IMG/VR virus record: IMGVR_UViG_2563366830_000009
Strand: one strand, 5' to 3'
Origin: a virus
Taxonomy: Duplodnaviria; Heunggongvirae; Uroviricota; Caudoviricetes
Length of the DNA stretch: 6,457 bases
In this document: one piece after another, positions 1 through 6,361 of the stretch
Layout of the letters: each line of letters opens with the position of its first letter
How positions within the stretch are numbered: the stretch's first letter is position 1
The notes under the pieces: generated by a model
Told to the model about the DNA's origin: nothing
The model's database searches: none
Seen by the model: the letters and a program-made list of their open reading frames with translations, nothing else
Program-made: the position numbers and the translations under genes

Positions 1-224
1 CCGCCGCCCGGGCGGGAATCCGCAGAACGCCCACCGCAGCGTGAGCCGTCAGCAGCAGTGTCGCTGTCGTGCTGACAACGACCGGCAAAGGCCTGAGTTG
101 ACGCTACCAGAGACAACAAAACGAACAGTGCAGCAAATGCTTTTTTCATTGTGACATTTCCATCTATAAGCCACCTCAATGTGGCGTCAATGAGTGTAGC
201 ACTGACTTTTGTTTCGTCCATAAA
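1..224. repeat. Direct repeat copy 1 (about 224 bp, 2 mismatches to copy 2 at 1176-1399); may extend left of the window
   Basis: Read directly: positions 1-224 align with 1176-1399 at offset 1175, differing only at 185 (c vs t) and 215 (t vs c). Contains the perfect palindrome CCCGCCCGGGCGGG (3-16). Confidence 0.9.
163..190 (-). promoter_or_regulatory. Sigma70-like promoter inside repeat copy 1 (-35 TTGACG, -10 TATAGA, 16-nt spacer)
   Basis: Minus-strand reading shows a -35 hexamer at 190-185 and -10 at 168-163. The single repeat mismatch at 185 falls in the -35 (TTGACG here, consensus TTGACA in copy 2). Confidence 0.4.
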
Positions 225-230
225 AAACTA

Positions 231-743
231 CTATGCAGGCTTTTTGGATTTGTACGAATAATCCCACGGATAAACATTTCTACTAAGTGGAGCTGTATTC
301 GTTCGTTCATGAAATAATTTTGTGAAATTCAATACGGAATCCATCCAAACTTTTGCGTTAGCTTTGGTGTGTGCGGGCGGGTCCCAATAAGCTAGTAAGG
401 CTGCATCTCTTATTTCATTGACTGCATATATGAGATATGCGTTACTGGTTGGTTTTGGCCTGTAATTTCCTTGTTCATCAATCAATCCATATGACCACTC
501 ATCCCAACACTGTTCAGTACATGAGTATGAATATGATGCATATTCACCAATATTGACATGAACCTTTCTGAGATGGAAGCCTAATACTTCGTCTGGTCTT
601 TCAAAAAGAGTATCTTTTCCCAGATCAGGATGATGACCATGACGCCAGTGTTGTTTAAAAGCATCTTTTAGCGAAATCAGAAAGTCATCAGTTTTAAACT
701 CACCAGTAGGTATAACCTTCCCGCTATACTCACTCAAAAACAT
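231..743 (-). CDS. YafO-family-like type II toxin (170 aa), putative ribosome-dependent mRNA interferase
   Basis: Good RBS on minus strand (AAGGAAGAGG about 6 nt before ATG at 743). Start overlaps the upstream ORF stop by 14 nt (730-743). Segments LFERPDEVLGFHLRKVHV and TSNAYLIYAVNEIRDAALLAYWDPPAH resemble my recollection of E. coli YafO (FERVAHIHL... and TNDEAHLVYCQG...WLLIAILKPEPH); not search-verified. Confidence 0.5.
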   Translation of the reverse strand: MFLSEYSGKVIPTGEFKTDDFLISLKDAFKQHWRHGHHPDLGKDTLFERPDEVLGFHLRKVHVNIGEYASYSYSCTEQCWDEWSYGLIDEQGNYRPKPTSNAYLIYAVNEIRDAALLAYWDPPAHTKANAKVWMDSVLNFTKLFHERTNTAPLSRNVYPWDYSYKSKKPA

Positions 744-1056
744 CGAATTCCTCTTCCTTCATATGCGTTTCTAATGAGTTAAGCTGGCGGAAAGATATCT
801 CTTTTGATTCTGCAGATGAGAGCTTTTTTATCCGCTTGATATTCTTTGTGATAGGAATAGACATTGTATGCACATCAGCGGATGCTCTTGGCTTTGTGCT
901 GATAAAAATATGGCGCAATGCCGCATTTTCACTATTGAACGAGCCAATAGCTGATTTACGTGCTACAACCTTACCAGTAAAAATACGACTCTTGCTACGC
1001 TTTGCATGAGTTCCGCTTCTTACCGGACCTCTCATCACGAATCCAAGTTTTGTCAT
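730..1056 (-). CDS. Hypothetical basic protein (108 aa), first gene of the module; candidate antitoxin or autoregulator, not YafN/Phd-like
   Basis: Strong RBS (GGAGA, 6-nt spacing) before ATG at 1056. Translationally coupled to the YafO-like ORF. Operator palindrome at 1099-1113 lies about 45 nt upstream. Very basic N-terminal half (GTHAKRSKSRIFTGKVVARKS). Confidence 0.5.
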   Translation of the reverse strand: MTKLGFVMRGPVRSGTHAKRSKSRIFTGKVVARKSAIGSFNSENAALRHIFISTKPRASADVHTMSIPITKNIKRIKKLSSAESKEISFRQLNSLETHMKEEEFDVFE

Positions 1057-1098
1057 CTTTAATCTCCGGTAAGTTACAGGTATAAAATAAAAACAGGT

Positions 1099-1113
1099 TT
1101 ACCTTTAAGGTAA
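1099..1113. promoter_or_regulatory. Operator-like perfect palindrome TTACCTTTAAGGTAA (site 1), overlapping a -10-like hexamer of a minus-strand promoter
   Basis: Minus strand reads TTGCAG(1141-1136)-17 nt-TACTAT(1118-1113) running into the palindrome. The identical 16-mer TTACCTTTAAGGTAAT recurs at 3921-3936. Confidence 0.55.
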
Positions 1114-1156
1114 TAGTACGCTATTCACCCCCGGTCTGCAATCTGTACAGAATTAT

Positions 1157-1324
1157 TTAAAGGCACATCCCTGTGCCGCCGCCCGGGCGGGAATCCGCAG
1201 AACGCCCACCGCAGCGTGAGCCGTCAGCAGCAGTGTCGCTGTCGTGCTGACAACGACCGGCAAAGGCCTGAGTTGACGCTACCAGAGACAACAAAACGAA
1301 CAGTGCAGCAAATGCTTTTTTCAT
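1157..1324 (-). CDS. Short ORF (55 aa) with a canonical Sec-type signal peptide (MKKAFAALFVLLSLVASTQAFA) and a Cys/Gly/Arg-rich tail; could be a small secreted peptide, a truncated gene 5' end, or a non-coding leader
   Basis: ATG at 1324-1322, stop at 1159-1157. The N-terminus has textbook n/h/c signal-peptide organisation, but the C-terminal 30 codons are read through GC-rich palindromes and there is no SD. An identical N-terminal coding segment in copy 1 (from ATG 149-147) runs off the left edge. Confidence 0.25.
   Translation of the reverse strand: MKKAFAALFVLLSLVASTQAFAGRCQHDSDTAADGSRCGGRSADSRPGGGTGMCL
1162..1177. other. Junction hairpin GGCACATCCCTGTGCC (6-bp stem, 4-nt loop) followed on the minus strand by a T/A-rich tract; module-boundary motif, possible weak terminator
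   Basis: The 24-bp motif aGGCACATCCnTGTGCCGCCGC recurs at 2315-2338 immediately after the 244-aa gene stop. Flanking promoter regions (ATAATT...TTGCAG) are also homologous. Confidence 0.4.
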
Positions 1325-1399
1325 TGTGACATTTCCATCTATAAGCCACCTCAATGTGGTGTCAATGAGTGTAGCACTGACTTTTGTTTCGTCCACAAA
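1176..1399. repeat. Direct repeat copy 2, about 99 percent identical to 1-224
   Basis: Same alignment as copy 1. Left boundary falls inside the hairpin motif GGCACATCCCTGTGCC (1162-1177); right boundary is the A-run before the terminator at 1403-1417. Confidence 0.9.
1338..1365 (-). promoter_or_regulatory. Sigma70-like promoter inside repeat copy 2 (-35 TTGACA consensus, 16-nt spacer, -10 TATAGA)
   Basis: Minus strand reads cactcaTTGACAccacattgaggtggctTATAGAtggaaatgtcacaATG. Perfect -35 and 4/6 -10; the ATG follows about 15 nt later with no clear Shine-Dalgarno. Confidence 0.45.
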
Positions 1400-1425
1400 A
1401 AAGCCCGCAGCGCGGGCTTACTTTT
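1397..1425. terminator. Rho-independent, bidirectional-type terminator (GCCCGC-AGC-GCGGGC flanked by an A-run and a T-rich run), terminating the minus-strand 182-aa gene
   Basis: Perfect 6-bp GC stem at 1403-1408/1412-1417. On the minus strand it is followed by TTTTTT (complement of 1397-1402) directly after the stop codon at 1418-1420. Confidence 0.7.
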
Positions 1426-3559: not shown

Positions 3560-3835
3560 AGCGATACCTCTACTAGTAAGTTACCTACCACCGCAACGCC
3601 AATTGCTGGTGGTGAACTGGACAAGGTTGGCGTACCGGCCTAGTAGGTACCGGCGCACCTTTCGGTGCCCCTGCCCAGCCCACCATAATTCGGATATGAC
3701 TGTGCTATACGCATAAAAAAACCACGTCTGGCGTGGTATGCGCCTACTAGTAATCCGGGACGCCAATCCCGGCACTGGATTTTGCCAGTGCCCGATTACT
3801 ATGGCACAAGAGGAGTGCGATGTAAATTTACCGAA
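3560..3835 (-). ncRNA. Candidate structured RNA: either an sRNA of about 120 nt (roughly 3835 to 3714) or a long attenuator-type 5' leader of the 168-aa/ORF6N operon
   Basis: Multiple nested stem-loops are visible: an outer stem AGTAATC/GATTACT (3748-3754 with 3794-3800) enclosing hairpins CCGGGA-CGCCAA-TCCCGG and CACTGG-ATTTTG-CCAGTG; GCACC-TTTC-GGTGC; ACCACC...GGTGGT. A promoter with overlapping operator sits upstream and the terminator is at 3714-3737. No ATG-initiated ORF in this minus-strand stretch. Confidence 0.3.
3714..3737 (-). terminator. Intrinsic terminator-like hairpin on the minus strand (ACCACG-CCAGA-CGTGGT followed by U6-7) inside the long region upstream of the 168-aa gene
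   Basis: Plus strand shows aaaaaaACCACGtctggCGTGGT; on the minus strand the 6-bp stem is followed by a T-run. It lies about 155 nt upstream of the 168-aa start codon. Confidence 0.5.
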
Positions 3836-3871
3836 AAGGTAATGATAAACGCTAAGAAATATTAAAATCAA
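3828..3871 (-). promoter_or_regulatory. Minus-strand promoter (-35 TTGATT 3871-3866, 18-nt spacer, -10 TATCAT 3847-3842) overlapping operator-like site 3, TTACCGAAAAGGTAA (3828-3842)
   Basis: Minus strand reads TTGATTttaatatttcttagcgttTATCATTACCTTTTCGGTAA. The arrangement of a -10 hexamer running into the TTACC half-site is the same as at site 1 (TACTATTACC). Confidence 0.4.
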
Positions 3872-3920: not shown

Positions 3921-3935
3921 TTACCTTTAAGGTAA
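3921..3935. promoter_or_regulatory. Operator-like site 4, TTACCTTTAAGGTAA, identical to site 1 and 21 nt upstream of the 175-aa gene start
   Basis: Perfect palindrome; the 16-mer TTACCTTTAAGGTAAT matches 1099-1114. It is followed by tgtGAGGAaaagcaATG (RBS and start at 3956). Confidence 0.5.
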
Positions 3936-4504: not shown

Positions 4505-6361
4505 TTAACGCATCACCGGATCCACCTGGTTTATTAGTGGCGCAATCCAGAACAGGTTATTGCCGGGGATCGTAGTTCGTACATTATGTACAATACGATC
4601 ACCGACATCACCATTCAACACACCAGAGGTCACATCAATGATGCTGTCCGCAAGACTGAATGACGGGCCGAACAAAGAACTCACAAAGCCACGGCTGGCA
4701 TAGCGTGACTGTGTGCCGGTGCCAAATAAAGCCCCCAGCCCAACAGCACCACCAGTAGCCTTTTCAGCCATGTTGTTATATTCCATCAATGGCCCAAGAA
4801 TACCGGATCTATCTATACCCTCAAGCACCAGCTTCTCTGGTGACCAGTCAACATCCTTCCCTTTCGATGCTTCTTTAAGCGCATAGACCAGTGAGCCAAG
4901 AGCAATCTGAAATGCAGTGCCATAATAAAACTGCGCAGTTCCTTCCTGTAACCCACCAAGTAGCGCACGGTTGTATGAAGCCGTTGTGAATGATTTAAAC
5001 TGAAATATCGTTCGCCCCCATGACGTACTCGCCCATAAAGGTGTGTCACCAATACCGGGGGTGATGATAGTGTTATTAACGTCTTTCAGAACCGCTGACT
5101 GGAATACTCCGGCAACGTACTGATCGTCCCATTTATCAAAGTTACCAATGTGCCATCCATCAATTACCTCACCATGTTTCTCGAACTCACTGCGAATACG
5201 CGCAGCCATATTGTCGTTGATACCGAGTTTTGCCAGGCGGCGTGCAGGAAATGCACCGGACAAAATACCGTCTGAAATAACCATTCCGTTCATGGATTTG
5301 TTTATGTCATTAAAGCGATCCATGAGTGTCAGCTTGCCGAAGGCATCAGTAATTCGCTCCATTCCGGCTTCGACTGCTGTTGTCCTGGAAGAGCTGTCAA
5401 CAAGATCACCAATTGCACGAGAGCGTGAATGCAGTACAGTTTCCAGTCCGATACCCATCTTCAACATCTCTTCTTTGCTGGCCTTAAATGCCGGTGATTG
5501 GGATATCTGAGAAGCATAGCCTTTCATGGTGTTACGGAAACCATTAACCATAACCCCTCTGGCCAGATCTGGAATAGCTGATACTGTCATTCCACCGAGT
5601 TTGGTCGTGAAGTTCACATCCCGCAGAAAAGCGCCAGCACGAACAAAAAACGAAGACGGATCATCAGGCATCCCATATGTACCAACAAGACGATCGCGTA
5701 ATGCTGTTATGTCTCTGAGATCATTTGCTCTTGATTTTGAAAGTCTGGACTGTTCTTTCCGTAATTCCTTTTCGTACTTTCGCATTAATGAATCGAGTTT
5801 ACCCTGAGGAACAACTTCACCATTGCTCTCATAACGTGCTTTCAGATTTGCCACACTTTCGTCATATTTCGCCTTTATTTTTTCAGGCACTTCCCGTAAC
5901 AGACTGTCATATTCGTCCTCAATTAATTGCAGACGCTCAGTCATAGTTCGTTTGCCAAATGTTCTCGTCAACTCAATTTCTGCTGCCGCTTCACGGATAT
6001 GACGTTGCAGCACGTAATTCACATCACTTTCAAGATAATCCCTGATAAGACTATCAGGAACATTTAATGTTCTTTCTTTCGTACTACCTGCGGCTTTTAC
6101 AGAAAATACGCTGACAAAATCCTGTGGAACCTTAGCACCAGTAATTTTATTAATTACGATATCTGCTGCAATTTCAGCATCCTCAGGAACCAGTGTTTTA
6201 TTTCCTCTCGACCACCAGTCAACCAAAATACGTCGAAATTTATCGCGTTCACTGATTATTTTTCCAACTTTATATATGCGTGGGAAATAGCTTGCCTGGC
6301 CTAATGCTTTCAGTTCTTCATCTGGCGGCAATAAACCAAGCTTTTGCATTTCAACTTTCAC
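4505..6361 (-). CDS. Large hypothetical protein (618 aa as tracked), charged/coiled-coil-like middle and Gly-rich hydrophobic C-terminal segment; possibly a phage virion or injection/tape-measure-like protein; 5' end abuts an IS element
   Basis: Long uninterrupted ORF. The tracked start at 6361 is GTG; the first ATG is at 6349-6347, with weak SD for both. The reading frame stays open upstream into the IS end at 6378 and to the window edge. No Walker A or HExxH motif seen. The family guess is weak. Confidence 0.6.
   Translation of the reverse strand: MKVEMQKLGLLPPDEELKALGQASYFPRIYKVGKIISERDKFRRILVDWWSRGNKTLVPEDAEIAADIVINKITGAKVPQDFVSVFSVKAAGSTKERTLNVPDSLIRDYLESDVNYVLQRHIREAAAEIELTRTFGKRTMTERLQLIEDEYDSLLREVPEKIKAKYDESVANLKARYESNGEVVPQGKLDSLMRKYEKELRKEQSRLSKSRANDLRDITALRDRLVGTYGMPDDPSSFFVRAGAFLRDVNFTTKLGGMTVSAIPDLARGVMVNGFRNTMKGYASQISQSPAFKASKEEMLKMGIGLETVLHSRSRAIGDLVDSSSRTTAVEAGMERITDAFGKLTLMDRFNDINKSMNGMVISDGILSGAFPARRLAKLGINDNMAARIRSEFEKHGEVIDGWHIGNFDKWDDQYVAGVFQSAVLKDVNNTIITPGIGDTPLWASTSWGRTIFQFKSFTTASYNRALLGGLQEGTAQFYYGTAFQIALGSLVYALKEASKGKDVDWSPEKLVLEGIDRSGILGPLMEYNNMAEKATGGAVGLGALFGTGTQSRYASRGFVSSLFGPSFSLADSIIDVTSGVLNGDVGDRIVHNVRTTIPGNNLFWIAPLINQVDPVMR

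What the first reader, a model, noticed from the sequence alone, without database searches (positions are those of the whole stretch)
231..1056. YafO-like toxin paired with a non-canonical upstream partner
The 170-aa ORF carries YafO-like motifs but its 14-nt-overlapping upstream partner is a basic 108-aa protein with no resemblance to YafN/Phd-type antitoxins as I recall them. This would be either a new antitoxin class for YafO-family toxins or a repurposed toxin domain. The toxin is also about 40 residues longer than canonical YafO.
Basis: partly seen in the sequence, partly recalled or inferred. Interest (0 to 1): 0.55.

Follow-up and report, generated by a model that had tools for sequence, protein, structure and literature searches.

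The report
Prophage YafO-like toxin with uncharacterised antitoxin
An E. coli prophage carries a toxin-antitoxin gene pair: the toxin is a divergent, longer relative of the known RNA-cutting toxin YafO, and its partner is an uncharacterised, very basic small protein that probably blocks the toxin with a conserved C-terminal helix, so this is a new variant of a familiar system, not a new kind.

Summary
Both ORFs exist, on the minus strand: 108 aa (1056-730) and 170 aa (743-231), overlapping by 14 nt. The window is an epsilon15/phiV10-like (Uetakevirus) prophage of E. coli MS 196-1.

The 108-aa partner (pI 10.6) matches no Pfam, NCBIfam, PADLOC or PDB entry. Its family is tiny, about 12 clusters among 1.84 billion representatives, and it evolves much faster than the toxin.

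Related prophages carry three otherwise unrelated partner types. All three share a significant C-terminal ~35-residue tail, the only confidently predicted part (a helix). It is probably the toxin-neutralising module. An apparent likeness to the YafN tail failed statistical tests.

The operon sits behind a palindrome (TTACC-N5-GGTAA) that also precedes the other accessory-gene units here, including a C4-RNA/antirepressor operon.

Verdict: a type II toxin-antitoxin module with an uncharacterised antitoxin family. Toxicity and rescue are untested. Interest is moderate to low.

The parts
231..743 (-). 170-aa long-form YafO-family toxin (WP_000479990.1), with a predicted BECR/RelE-HigB fold
730..1056 (-). 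108-aa basic partner (WP_000163643.1, PHROG 5933), the putative antitoxin
   Evidence: ORF. PHROG 5933 at E 1.8e-73. No Pfam, NCBIfam, PADLOC or PDB match. Exhaustive profile search found 14 hits in 1.84 billion representatives. pI 10.6. dN/dS 0.17-0.64.
733..831 (-). Codons for partner residues 76-108: conserved C-terminal helix and acidic-aromatic tail (…ISxxESxELSFRMLNSLEDRMKEEEFDVFE*), the proposed toxin-neutralising module
   Evidence: This is the only confident part of the AF2 model: helix 81-107, pLDDT 87-88. The tail is shared by three otherwise unrelated partner types: column-shuffle z 7.2 and 6.6, 0 of 1000 shuffles; hmmsearch per-comparison E 1e-5 to 1e-3.
832..1056 (-). Codons for partner residues 1-75: N-terminal basic segment (MTKLGFVMRG…KRxK) and a fast-evolving beta-rich middle, function unknown
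730..743 (-). 14-nt overlap between the end of the partner gene and the start of the toxin gene, suggesting translational coupling
   Evidence: The same 14-nt overlap occurs in all type A loci. The ORF script gave nominal overlaps of 14-26 nt in type B loci, taking the first possible start codon of each toxin ORF.
1064..1067 (-). Shine-Dalgarno GGAG, 7 nt before the partner ATG (1056-1054)
   Evidence: Read from the sequence. CGGAGA is conserved upstream of the ATG in diverged loci.
1099..1113 (.). Palindrome TTACCTTTAAGGTAA: operator-like site shared with the other accessory-gene units of this prophage region
   Evidence: 4 perfect copies in the window against 0.14 expected. 6 copies in 19.5 kb of L001, all in the accessory region. 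3 copies in phage phiv142-3, which lacks the cassette. Half-sites are conserved upstream of diverged type A and type B operons.
1113..1141 (-). Promoter-like hexamers TTGCAG (1141-1136), 17 nt, TACTAT (1118-1113), abutting the palindrome. Read by eye only.
   Evidence: Sequence. A similar TTGCA-N17-TAnAnT arrangement occurs in the diverged loci. The promoter scan did NOT call it (0 sites), because it matches only 7 of 12 consensus positions.
1..227 (.). Direct repeat copy 1, downstream of the toxin, carrying a small signal-peptide gene
   Evidence: 227-nt repeat, 99% identical to 1176-1402. Small-gene PHROGs 3117 and 14503.
1176..1402 (.). Direct repeat copy 2, upstream of the cassette promoter, carrying the second copy of the small signal-peptide gene
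   Evidence: Strain IMT16316 (L002) has the cassette with only one copy.

Best explanation
This is a two-gene type II toxin-antitoxin module carried as an accessory ('moron') unit of an epsilon15/phiV10-like prophage.

The downstream 170-aa protein is a divergent long form of the YafO family: a RelE/HigB-fold (BECR) endoribonuclease that, by homology, cuts mRNA and stops translation.

The upstream 108-aa protein is the antitoxin. It is made first and is translationally coupled to the toxin through the 14-nt overlap. It neutralises the toxin with its conserved C-terminal amphipathic helix and acidic-aromatic tail (residues ~76-108). RelB, DinJ, YefM and Phd do the same with their C-terminal segments.

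The very basic, poorly conserved N-terminal two-thirds is not a Phd/YefM, RHH, AbrB or HTH domain. Its role is open: nucleic-acid binding, a degradation signal, or a sensor.

Transcription starts at a phage promoter whose TTACC-N5-GGTAA operator is shared with the neighbouring accessory units. Control therefore probably comes from a phage regulator, not from the antitoxin alone.

Shown: homology, fold, gene architecture, the shared tail and the shared palindrome.
Inferred: toxicity, neutralisation through the tail, RNase activity, regulation, and the biological role (prophage stabilisation or exclusion of other phages).
For: Toxin:
- Profile-profile match to canonical YafO at 93.2% probability, E 2.9e-7, over 105 columns.
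- 22 of 23 long-form members hit PF13957.
- AF2 pLDDT 88.9, pTM 0.85.
- F29, H62, Y106 and H125 are invariant, and D44 nearly invariant, across 41 long-form and canonical sequences. R59 is also invariant in the 20-sequence set.

Pair:
- Antitoxin-then-toxin order with a 14-nt overlap, kept in every type A locus.
- The ORF script gave nominal overlaps of 14-26 nt in type B, using the first possible toxin start codon.
- Toxin identity is 69-79% where the partner is only 34-49%.

Tail:
- Three partner types (A 104-125 aa, B 113-183 aa, C 147-175 aa) have unrelated bodies but a shared, ungapped C-terminal ~35 residues.
- Shuffle test: A vs B z 7.2, A vs C z 6.6, 0 of 1000 shuffles reach the observed score. 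HMM cross-hits have E 1e-5 to 1e-3.
- The tail is the only high-confidence element of the partner model.
- Tail pN/pS is about 0.3, against about 0.7-0.9 in the middle.
- Tail type follows toxin clade. A mosaic toxin (type A-like over most of its length, type B-like after about residue 125) keeps a type A tail partner.

Context:
- The unit has its own promoter-like region and operator, and a hairpin lies upstream.
- The cassette is present in only some related prophages.
Against: - No experiment: toxicity, rescue and RNA cleavage are all untested, and no complex could be modelled.
- The window protein itself is below Pfam's gathering score (19.7 vs 25 bits).
- Foldseek against the PDB gave nothing significant.
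- The partner has no recognisable DNA-binding or dimerisation domain, and its body is modelled poorly. The usual autoregulatory half of a type II antitoxin is therefore not demonstrated.
- A strongly basic antitoxin is atypical; K-12 YafN has pI 5.5.
- Read-assembly contigs exist in which the partner is frameshifted before the tail while the toxin ORF is intact: L053, and L054/L055 from two samples. These may be homopolymer or assembly errors, since the related finished genome L056 has an intact partner. Otherwise they argue that the tail is dispensable.
- The palindrome also occurs in phages without the cassette, so it says nothing about DNA binding by the partner.
Confidence: 0.68

Rival explanations
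1. The pair is a phage lytic-cycle or early-infection device and not a lysogen-expressed addiction or defence module. It shares its operator with the C4-RNA/antirepressor (immI-like) operon, so it would be silent in the lysogen and switched on with the antirepressor. The YafO-like RNase would then act in host shut-off or exclusion, and the basic partner would time or target its activity.
For: The same perfect palindrome precedes the partner gene (1099-1113) and lies upstream of the C4 antisense RNA / isrK / ORF6N antirepressor unit (3828-3842). By analogy with phage P1 immI (own knowledge), such a unit has to be repressed in a lysogen. All six copies in 19.5 kb lie in this region. The site belongs to the phage backbone.
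Against: The protein that binds the palindrome is unknown, and it could be an activator. No expression data exist. Accessory units with their own promoter and terminator are usually expressed from the prophage. The gene architecture is that of a classical type II module and does not by itself require a lytic role.
Confidence: 0.15
2. The 108-aa protein is not the antitoxin. It would be a nucleic-acid-binding or regulatory protein that merely shares the operon. The toxin would then be kept in check by something else (an RNA, a host factor, a trans-acting antitoxin from another prophage), or it is not toxic at all.
Against: The partner's conserved part is exactly what varies with toxin clade and is shared by three unrelated bodies. 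That pattern is expected for a toxin-binding module. The overlap and gene order are strictly conserved. Rfam found no RNA in the cassette. The frameshifts lie in or next to A-runs in short-read assemblies, and the related finished genome is intact.
Confidence: 0.12
3. The partner is a distant YafN: it would have the same toxin-binding tail as E. coli YafN with a swapped N-terminal domain, so only a known antitoxin with a domain replacement.
For: By eye, K-12 YafN ends …RPSAARLEEITRRAEQYLNDMTDDDFNDFKE and the partner ends …KLSSAESKEISFRQLNSLETHMKEEEFDVFE. hhalign aligned partner 78-107 to YafN 67-95.
Against: The match is not significant. hhalign gave E 0.08 and 0.7% probability. The tail profile against a five-YafN tail profile gave E 0.14. 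hmmsearch per-comparison E was 0.02-0.17. The column-shuffle z was -0.9 to 0.5, with 286-835 of 1000 shuffles reaching the observed score. The likeness is explained by composition: both are helical, acidic tails.
Confidence: 0.05

Closest known systems
E. coli K-12 YafN-YafO (dinB-yafNOP operon; toxin family Pfam PF13957)
   Same: The toxin is homologous at profile level. The antitoxin-then-toxin order and the conserved His, Tyr, Asp and Arg positions are shared. By homology, the expected activity is mRNA cleavage that blocks translation (PMC2814082, PMC11980606).
   Different: The toxin is 38 aa longer, with an insertion at 64-102 and a C-terminal extension, and is only about 22-24% identical. 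The single sequence is below the Pfam threshold. The partner is not a Phd/YefM protein. It is basic (pI 10.6) where YafN is acidic (pI 5.5). The genes overlap by 14 nt, whereas yafN and yafO are separated by 2 nt. The location is a prophage accessory region, not the SOS-regulated dinB operon.
HigB2-HigA2 (Vibrio cholerae) and other RelE/HigB/YafQ modules of the BECR-fold RelE/ParE superfamily
   Different: Sequence identity is only 6-17%. higBA has the reverse gene order. The antitoxins there carry HTH or RHH DNA-binding domains, which the 108-aa partner lacks.
Uncharacterised phage protein families PHROG 1651 (toxin) and PHROG 5933 (partner)
   Same: The window proteins are full-length members, at E 1.6e-52 and 1.8e-73.
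   Different: Both families are labelled 'unknown function'. The link between them, and the shared tail with the type B and C partners, is not recorded there.
Mix-and-match type II modules (Leplae et al. 2011, PMC3141249; E. coli survey PMC10790755)
   Same: A known toxin family is paired with unrelated antitoxin families. YafO was already noted with non-Phd 'guilt-by-association' partners, and with 13 partner clusters of which 8% are known.
   Different: Here three partner types keep one common C-terminal toxin-facing tail while the rest of the protein is replaced. In 2011 the YafO superfamily was reported as absent from phages, yet this subfamily is prophage-borne.

Membership tests
YafO toxin family (Pfam PF13957) | Scores above the family's curated gathering threshold | tested here: not met
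   19.7 bits against a 25-bit cut-off, E 9.5e-4, covering profile positions 7-100 of 101. 22 of 23 subfamily members hit at E <= 0.01, best 1.6e-5. A few members have a precomputed PF13957 hit.
YafO toxin family (Pfam PF13957) | Demonstrable homology to canonical YafO sequences | tested here: met
   hhalign of the 23-sequence long-form alignment against the 18-sequence canonical alignment: 93.2% probability, E 2.9e-7, 105 columns.
YafO toxin family (Pfam PF13957) | RelE/BECR fold | tested here: met
YafO toxin family (Pfam PF13957) | Conserved candidate active-site residues | tested here: met
   F29, H62, Y106 and H125 are invariant, and G36, G42 and D44 nearly invariant, across 41 long-form and canonical sequences. 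R59 is invariant. Their catalytic role is assumed, not tested.
YafO toxin family (Pfam PF13957) | Phd/YefM-type YafN antitoxin encoded immediately upstream | tested here: not met
   The partner has no PF02604 hit. K-12 and four other canonical loci all have a PhdYeFM partner. The tail likeness to YafN is not significant.
YafO toxin family (Pfam PF13957) | Translation-linked mRNA cleavage | not testable with these tools
   Needs toxin induction followed by primer extension or RNA-seq.
Type II toxin-antitoxin module | Two small, co-oriented, adjacent or overlapping genes, with conserved synteny | tested here: met
   14-nt overlap. The same arrangement is seen in the 40 viral loci, one genome locus and L056.
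Type II toxin-antitoxin module | Toxin inhibits growth, and the protein antitoxin binds and rescues | not testable with these tools
   No experiment.
Type II toxin-antitoxin module | Antitoxin carries a DNA-binding domain and autoregulates the operon | tested here: inconclusive
   No known DNA-binding fold was found. The N-terminal part is very basic. The only conserved upstream site is a palindrome that also occurs in phages lacking the cassette.
Known anti-phage defence systems (PADLOC-DB v2) | Match to a defence-system protein model | tested here: not met
   No hit for toxin or partner, nor for the second YafO-like pair of L002.

The most novel reading that the evidence does not exclude
The module would be a phage-controlled weapon, not a passive addiction cassette. 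Its promoter shares an operator with the antirepressor (C4/immI-like) operon, so the YafO-like RNase and its partner would switch on only when prophage repression is lifted or on infection. The basic, hypervariable body of the partner, swapped wholesale between types A, B and C while the toxin-binding tail is kept, would be a diversifying sensor or decoy that releases the RNase in response to a competing phage or a host cue.
Probability: 0.12. Interest if true: 0.6.

Novelty: new variant of a known kind. Interest (0 to 1): 0.33.

Why it matters
If confirmed, this adds an uncharacterised antitoxin family to the small YafO group. YafO has about 1,000 Pfam entries and no solved structure.

It would also give a clean natural example of modular antitoxin evolution. 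One about 35-residue toxin-binding tail is retained while the rest of the protein is replaced at least three times.

It places YafO-type toxins on temperate phages, where the 2011 census found none.

The shared-operator layout gives a simple, testable handle on when prophage accessory genes of this phage group are expressed.

None of this overturns current understanding of toxin-antitoxin systems.

Tried and rejected
1. YafN-like tail. The first hhalign run lined up the partner's last 30 residues with the end of YafN, and the two look alike by eye. Testing with HMMs, profile-profile comparison and a 1000-fold column-shuffle test showed no signal above composition, so I rejected it.

2. Common N-terminal motif of partner types A, B and C (M-T/S-K-L/I… then R/K-rich). 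It is not significant: z 0.9, -0.9 and -0.2. The first 25 codons also show suppressed synonymous change, so their conservation may be at nucleotide level.

5. NCBIfam and PADLOC gave no hits. The PDB sequence search with the partner profile found nothing. With the toxin profile it gave one spurious designed-repeat hit.

6. The genome-contig scan returned only one locus, from Serratia aquatilis. The viral-contig scan was far more useful.

7. The afdb50 fold library was unavailable. A first shuffle script built on hhalign timed out and was replaced by my own profile Smith-Waterman test.

8. A second upstream element is not consistent across loci of one partner type. It is TCAAC-N5-GTTGA in type B and some type A loci, and TAAACCTGT/TATACCTGT repeats in the window. 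It therefore cannot be called an antitoxin operator.

9. I first took the L023 toxin to be the mosaic P0023. Segment identities showed it is not. The real mosaic is on L057.

10. Literature searches for the protein accessions found nothing.

Full report
**Where the window comes from.** The window is 100% identical to the chromosome of E. coli MS 196-1. It lies inside a prophage integrated next to yfgI. The prophage encodes a capsid protein, internal virion proteins, an endosialidase tailspike and lysis genes. The nearest phages are phiV10/epsilon15-like podoviruses of the genus Uetakevirus. The finding sits in the variable accessory region between the internal virion protein gene (4505-6361, minus) and the tailspike. 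The other genes in that region are a DUF2335 membrane protein, an ORF6N antirepressor and several unknowns.

**The observation.**
- Both ORFs are on the minus strand: partner 1056-730 (108 aa) and toxin 743-231 (170 aa), overlapping by 14 nt.
- A GGAG lies 7 nt before the partner ATG.
- The partner has pI 10.6. Residues 1-75 have pI 12.0 and the last 33 residues are acidic.
- The toxin is 38 aa longer than K-12 YafO.
- Both proteins belong to phage protein families of unknown function, PHROG 1651 and PHROG 5933.
- The pair occurs in 69 of 5,426 complete E. coli genomes. RefSeq names the toxin 'type II toxin-antitoxin system YafO family toxin' and the partner 'hypothetical protein'.

**Is the 170-aa protein a YafO?**
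- On its own it hits Pfam YafO_toxin at E 9.5e-4 and 19.7 bits, below the 25-bit cut-off, though over almost the whole profile. BLASTP against K-12 YafO is not significant.
- I collected about 30 long-form clusters (166-175 aa) and many canonical 131-134-aa YafO proteins, and aligned the two groups separately.
- Profile against profile, they match at 93.2% probability, E 2.9e-7, over 105 columns. 22 of 23 long-form members hit PF13957 at E <= 0.01.
- F29, H62, Y106 and H125 are invariant, and D44, G36 and G42 nearly so, across all 41 sequences. R59 is invariant in the smaller set.
- An AF2 model built on that alignment is confident: pLDDT 88.9, pTM 0.85.
- No YafO relative has a solved structure by sequence search.
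- Conclusion: this is a divergent long-form subfamily of YafO. The extra length is an insertion (about residues 64-102, with conserved C79, W80 and W83) plus a C-terminal extension. Nothing suggests an inactivated or repurposed domain.
- Published work describes YafO as an mRNA-cleaving toxin whose action depends on translation (PMC2814082). Its ribosome dependence has since been questioned (PMC11980606).

**What is the 108-aa partner?**
- It has no Pfam, NCBIfam or PADLOC hit and no PDB relative at E <= 10.
- A word-indexed search found 6 relatives. An exhaustive HMMER search of 1.84 billion cluster representatives with the family profile found 14 hits, of which about 12 are 89-116-aa proteins resembling the partner. 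The family is very small.
- It diverges much faster than the toxin: 34-49% against 69-79% identity in the same loci.
- It is still a selected coding sequence, with dN/dS 0.17-0.64 against 0.04-0.10 for the toxin.
- The AF2 model is poor overall (pLDDT 64.9). Residues 1-16 look disordered and a four-stranded sheet at 25-67 has pLDDT about 60-66. Helix 81-107 is confident, at pLDDT 87-88.

**The informative comparison.** A scan of viral contigs returned 40 loci with long-form YafO genes at 43-100% identity. I extracted the upstream ORFs and found three partner types:

| Type | Length | Start | End |
|---|---|---|---|
| A | 104-125 aa | MTKLGFVMRG… | …ISAxxSxELSFRMLNSLEDRMKEEEFDVFE |
| B | 113-183 aa | MSKIVALIA… (the 113-114-aa forms; the longer forms begin differently) | …PRVKKMTFTEACKISRELSDSREERLMRASFDGPE |
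| C | 147-175 aa | MNTKR… | …VPKMSVEKSHAISRRMFARTAEDMAQELYDDAE |

- Each type accompanies its own toxin clade.
- The bodies are unrelated, and within type C the middle is replaced wholesale.
- The last ~35 residues align without gaps across all three types.
- A column-shuffle profile test gave A vs B z 7.2 and A vs C z 6.6 (0 of 1000 shuffles reach the observed score), and B vs C z 2.6 (18 of 1000).
- Cross-type HMM hits have per-comparison E of 1e-5 to 1e-3.
- Within the partner gene the tail has pN/pS of about 0.3, against about 0.7-0.9 in the middle.
- A mosaic toxin is type A-like over most of its length and type B-like after about residue 125. It is paired with a type A tail. This hints that the tail reads the first ~125 residues of the toxin, but it rests on one short read-assembly contig.
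- Taken together, the tail is the part that co-varies with the toxin, is conserved, and is predicted to fold. I take it to be the neutralising module. RelB, DinJ, YefM and Phd use their C-terminal segments in the same way (established knowledge of those families).

**A lead that failed.** The tail looks like the end of K-12 YafN, and hhalign aligned the two. I gathered four more YafN sequences from canonical YafO loci, all Phd/YefM-type, and tested the likeness three ways. None was significant: E 0.02-0.17, E 0.14, and z <= 0.5. The N-terminal likeness among types A, B and C is also not significant.

**Regulation and context.**
- The 100 nt upstream of the partner contain a perfect palindrome, TTACCTTTAAGGTAA (1099-1113). 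It abuts hexamers that I read as TTGCAG-17-TACTAT. The promoter scan did not call them.
- The palindrome occurs four times in the window against 0.14 expected, each time just upstream of a transcription unit.
- It occurs six times in 19.5 kb of the prophage, all in the accessory region.
- It occurs three times in phage phiv142-3, which lacks the cassette.
- Its half-sites are kept upstream of strongly diverged type A and B operons.
- It is therefore most likely the operator of a phage regulator shared by all these units, not an antitoxin-specific site.
- One copy (3828-3842) lies upstream of a C4 antisense RNA (76.7 bits), an isrK-like RNA (68.1 bits) and the ORF6N antirepressor. This is an immI-like arrangement, and it raises the possibility that the toxin-antitoxin operon is co-regulated with the antirepressor.
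- The cassette is bracketed by a 227-nt direct repeat (1-227 and 1176-1402, 99% identical) that duplicates a small signal-peptide gene. Strain IMT16316 has the cassette with one copy and, nearby, a second type C YafO-like pair.

**Caveats.**
- Nothing here shows toxicity, binding or RNA cleavage.
- Three read-assembly contigs have a frameshift in the partner ahead of the tail while the toxin ORF is intact. The shifts lie in or next to A-runs, and the related finished Raoultella genome has an intact partner. Error is likely but not proven.
- The first 25 codons of the partner show unusually low synonymous divergence. This is unexplained.

**Comparison with what is known, and verdict.**
- Pairing of a known toxin family with unrelated antitoxins is well documented. 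For YafO specifically, non-Phd partners were noted in 2011 (PMC3141249). A 2023 E. coli survey listed 13 partner clusters, only 8% of them known (PMC10790755).
- No paper mentions these proteins by accession.
- The finding is real and correctly spotted. It is a new variant of a known kind: a prophage-borne long-form YafO toxin with an uncharacterised, modular, basic antitoxin.
- Interest is moderate to low. The shared-tail, swapped-body architecture and the operator shared with the antirepressor operon are the parts worth an experiment.

Noticed in passing
window 3605-3690 (-), 3715-3791 (-), 3752-3804 (-): Rfam finds a C4 antisense RNA (76.7 bits, gathering score 45), an isrK Hfq-binding RNA (68.1 bits, gathering score 50) and, just below threshold, the a1/b1 target of C4 (45.1 vs 46.7 bits). 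They lie upstream of the 168-aa gene and the ORF6N antirepressor, which is a P1 immI-like antirepressor control unit. RefSeq annotates part of this stretch as a 'Rha family' pseudogene fragment, probably wrongly.
   Followed up: partly
window 1099-1113, 2241-2255, 3828-3842, 3921-3935; L001 7562-7576 and 7942-7956; L051 2502-2516, 3517-3531, 3897-3911: The palindrome TTACC-N5-GGTAA marks the start of every accessory transcription unit in this prophage region: 4 copies in the window against 0.14 expected, and 6 in 19.5 kb, all in this region. It is also present in a related phage without the toxin-antitoxin cassette. It is probably the operator of an unidentified phage regulator.
   Followed up: partly
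window 1-227 and 1176-1402: A 227-nt direct repeat (99% identical) brackets the cassette. It duplicates a small signal-peptide gene (MKKAFAALFVLLSLVASTQAFA…; PHROG 3117/14503, 'membrane associated protein'). The repeat probably marks recombination between two phage accessory-gene arrangements. Strain IMT16316 has only one copy.
   Followed up: partly
window 1162-1177 and 2318-2333 (within the repeat family at 1154-1185 / 2309-2340): The hairpin GGCACAGGGATGTGCC followed by TTTAA recurs at the 3' end of successive units, directly ahead of the next promoter and operator. It looks like a terminator-plus-promoter junction module reused between cassettes. It also follows the Ant gene in L005.
   Followed up: no
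L002 8266-9205 (E. coli IMT16316); L035-L044: A second, type C YafO-like pair (147-175-aa partner plus about 168-aa toxin, 42% identical to the window toxin) sits in the same prophage region, sometimes together with the type A pair. The middle of the type C partner exists in several unrelated versions between conserved ends.
   Followed up: partly
window 982-1056 (first 25 codons of the partner) compared with L019, L023 and L026-L031: Synonymous divergence of the first 25 codons is far lower (pS 0.00-0.43) than in the rest of the gene or in the toxin (0.5-0.85). This suggests a nucleotide-level constraint or a recombination junction at the 5' end.
   Followed up: no
L053 1138-1499; L054 and L055 2001-2340: Partner alleles are frameshifted in or next to A-runs, with the conserved tail still readable in another frame and an intact toxin ORF downstream. 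They occur in three short-read assemblies. Possible explanations are sequencing error, decay or slippage.
   Followed up: partly
window 4505-6361 (-); L001 13505-17039: The internal virion protein gene (PHROG 16310/342) is interrupted in this strain by an IS3-family element just beyond the window. An IS3 also splits the holin gene. The prophage is therefore probably defective.
   Followed up: no
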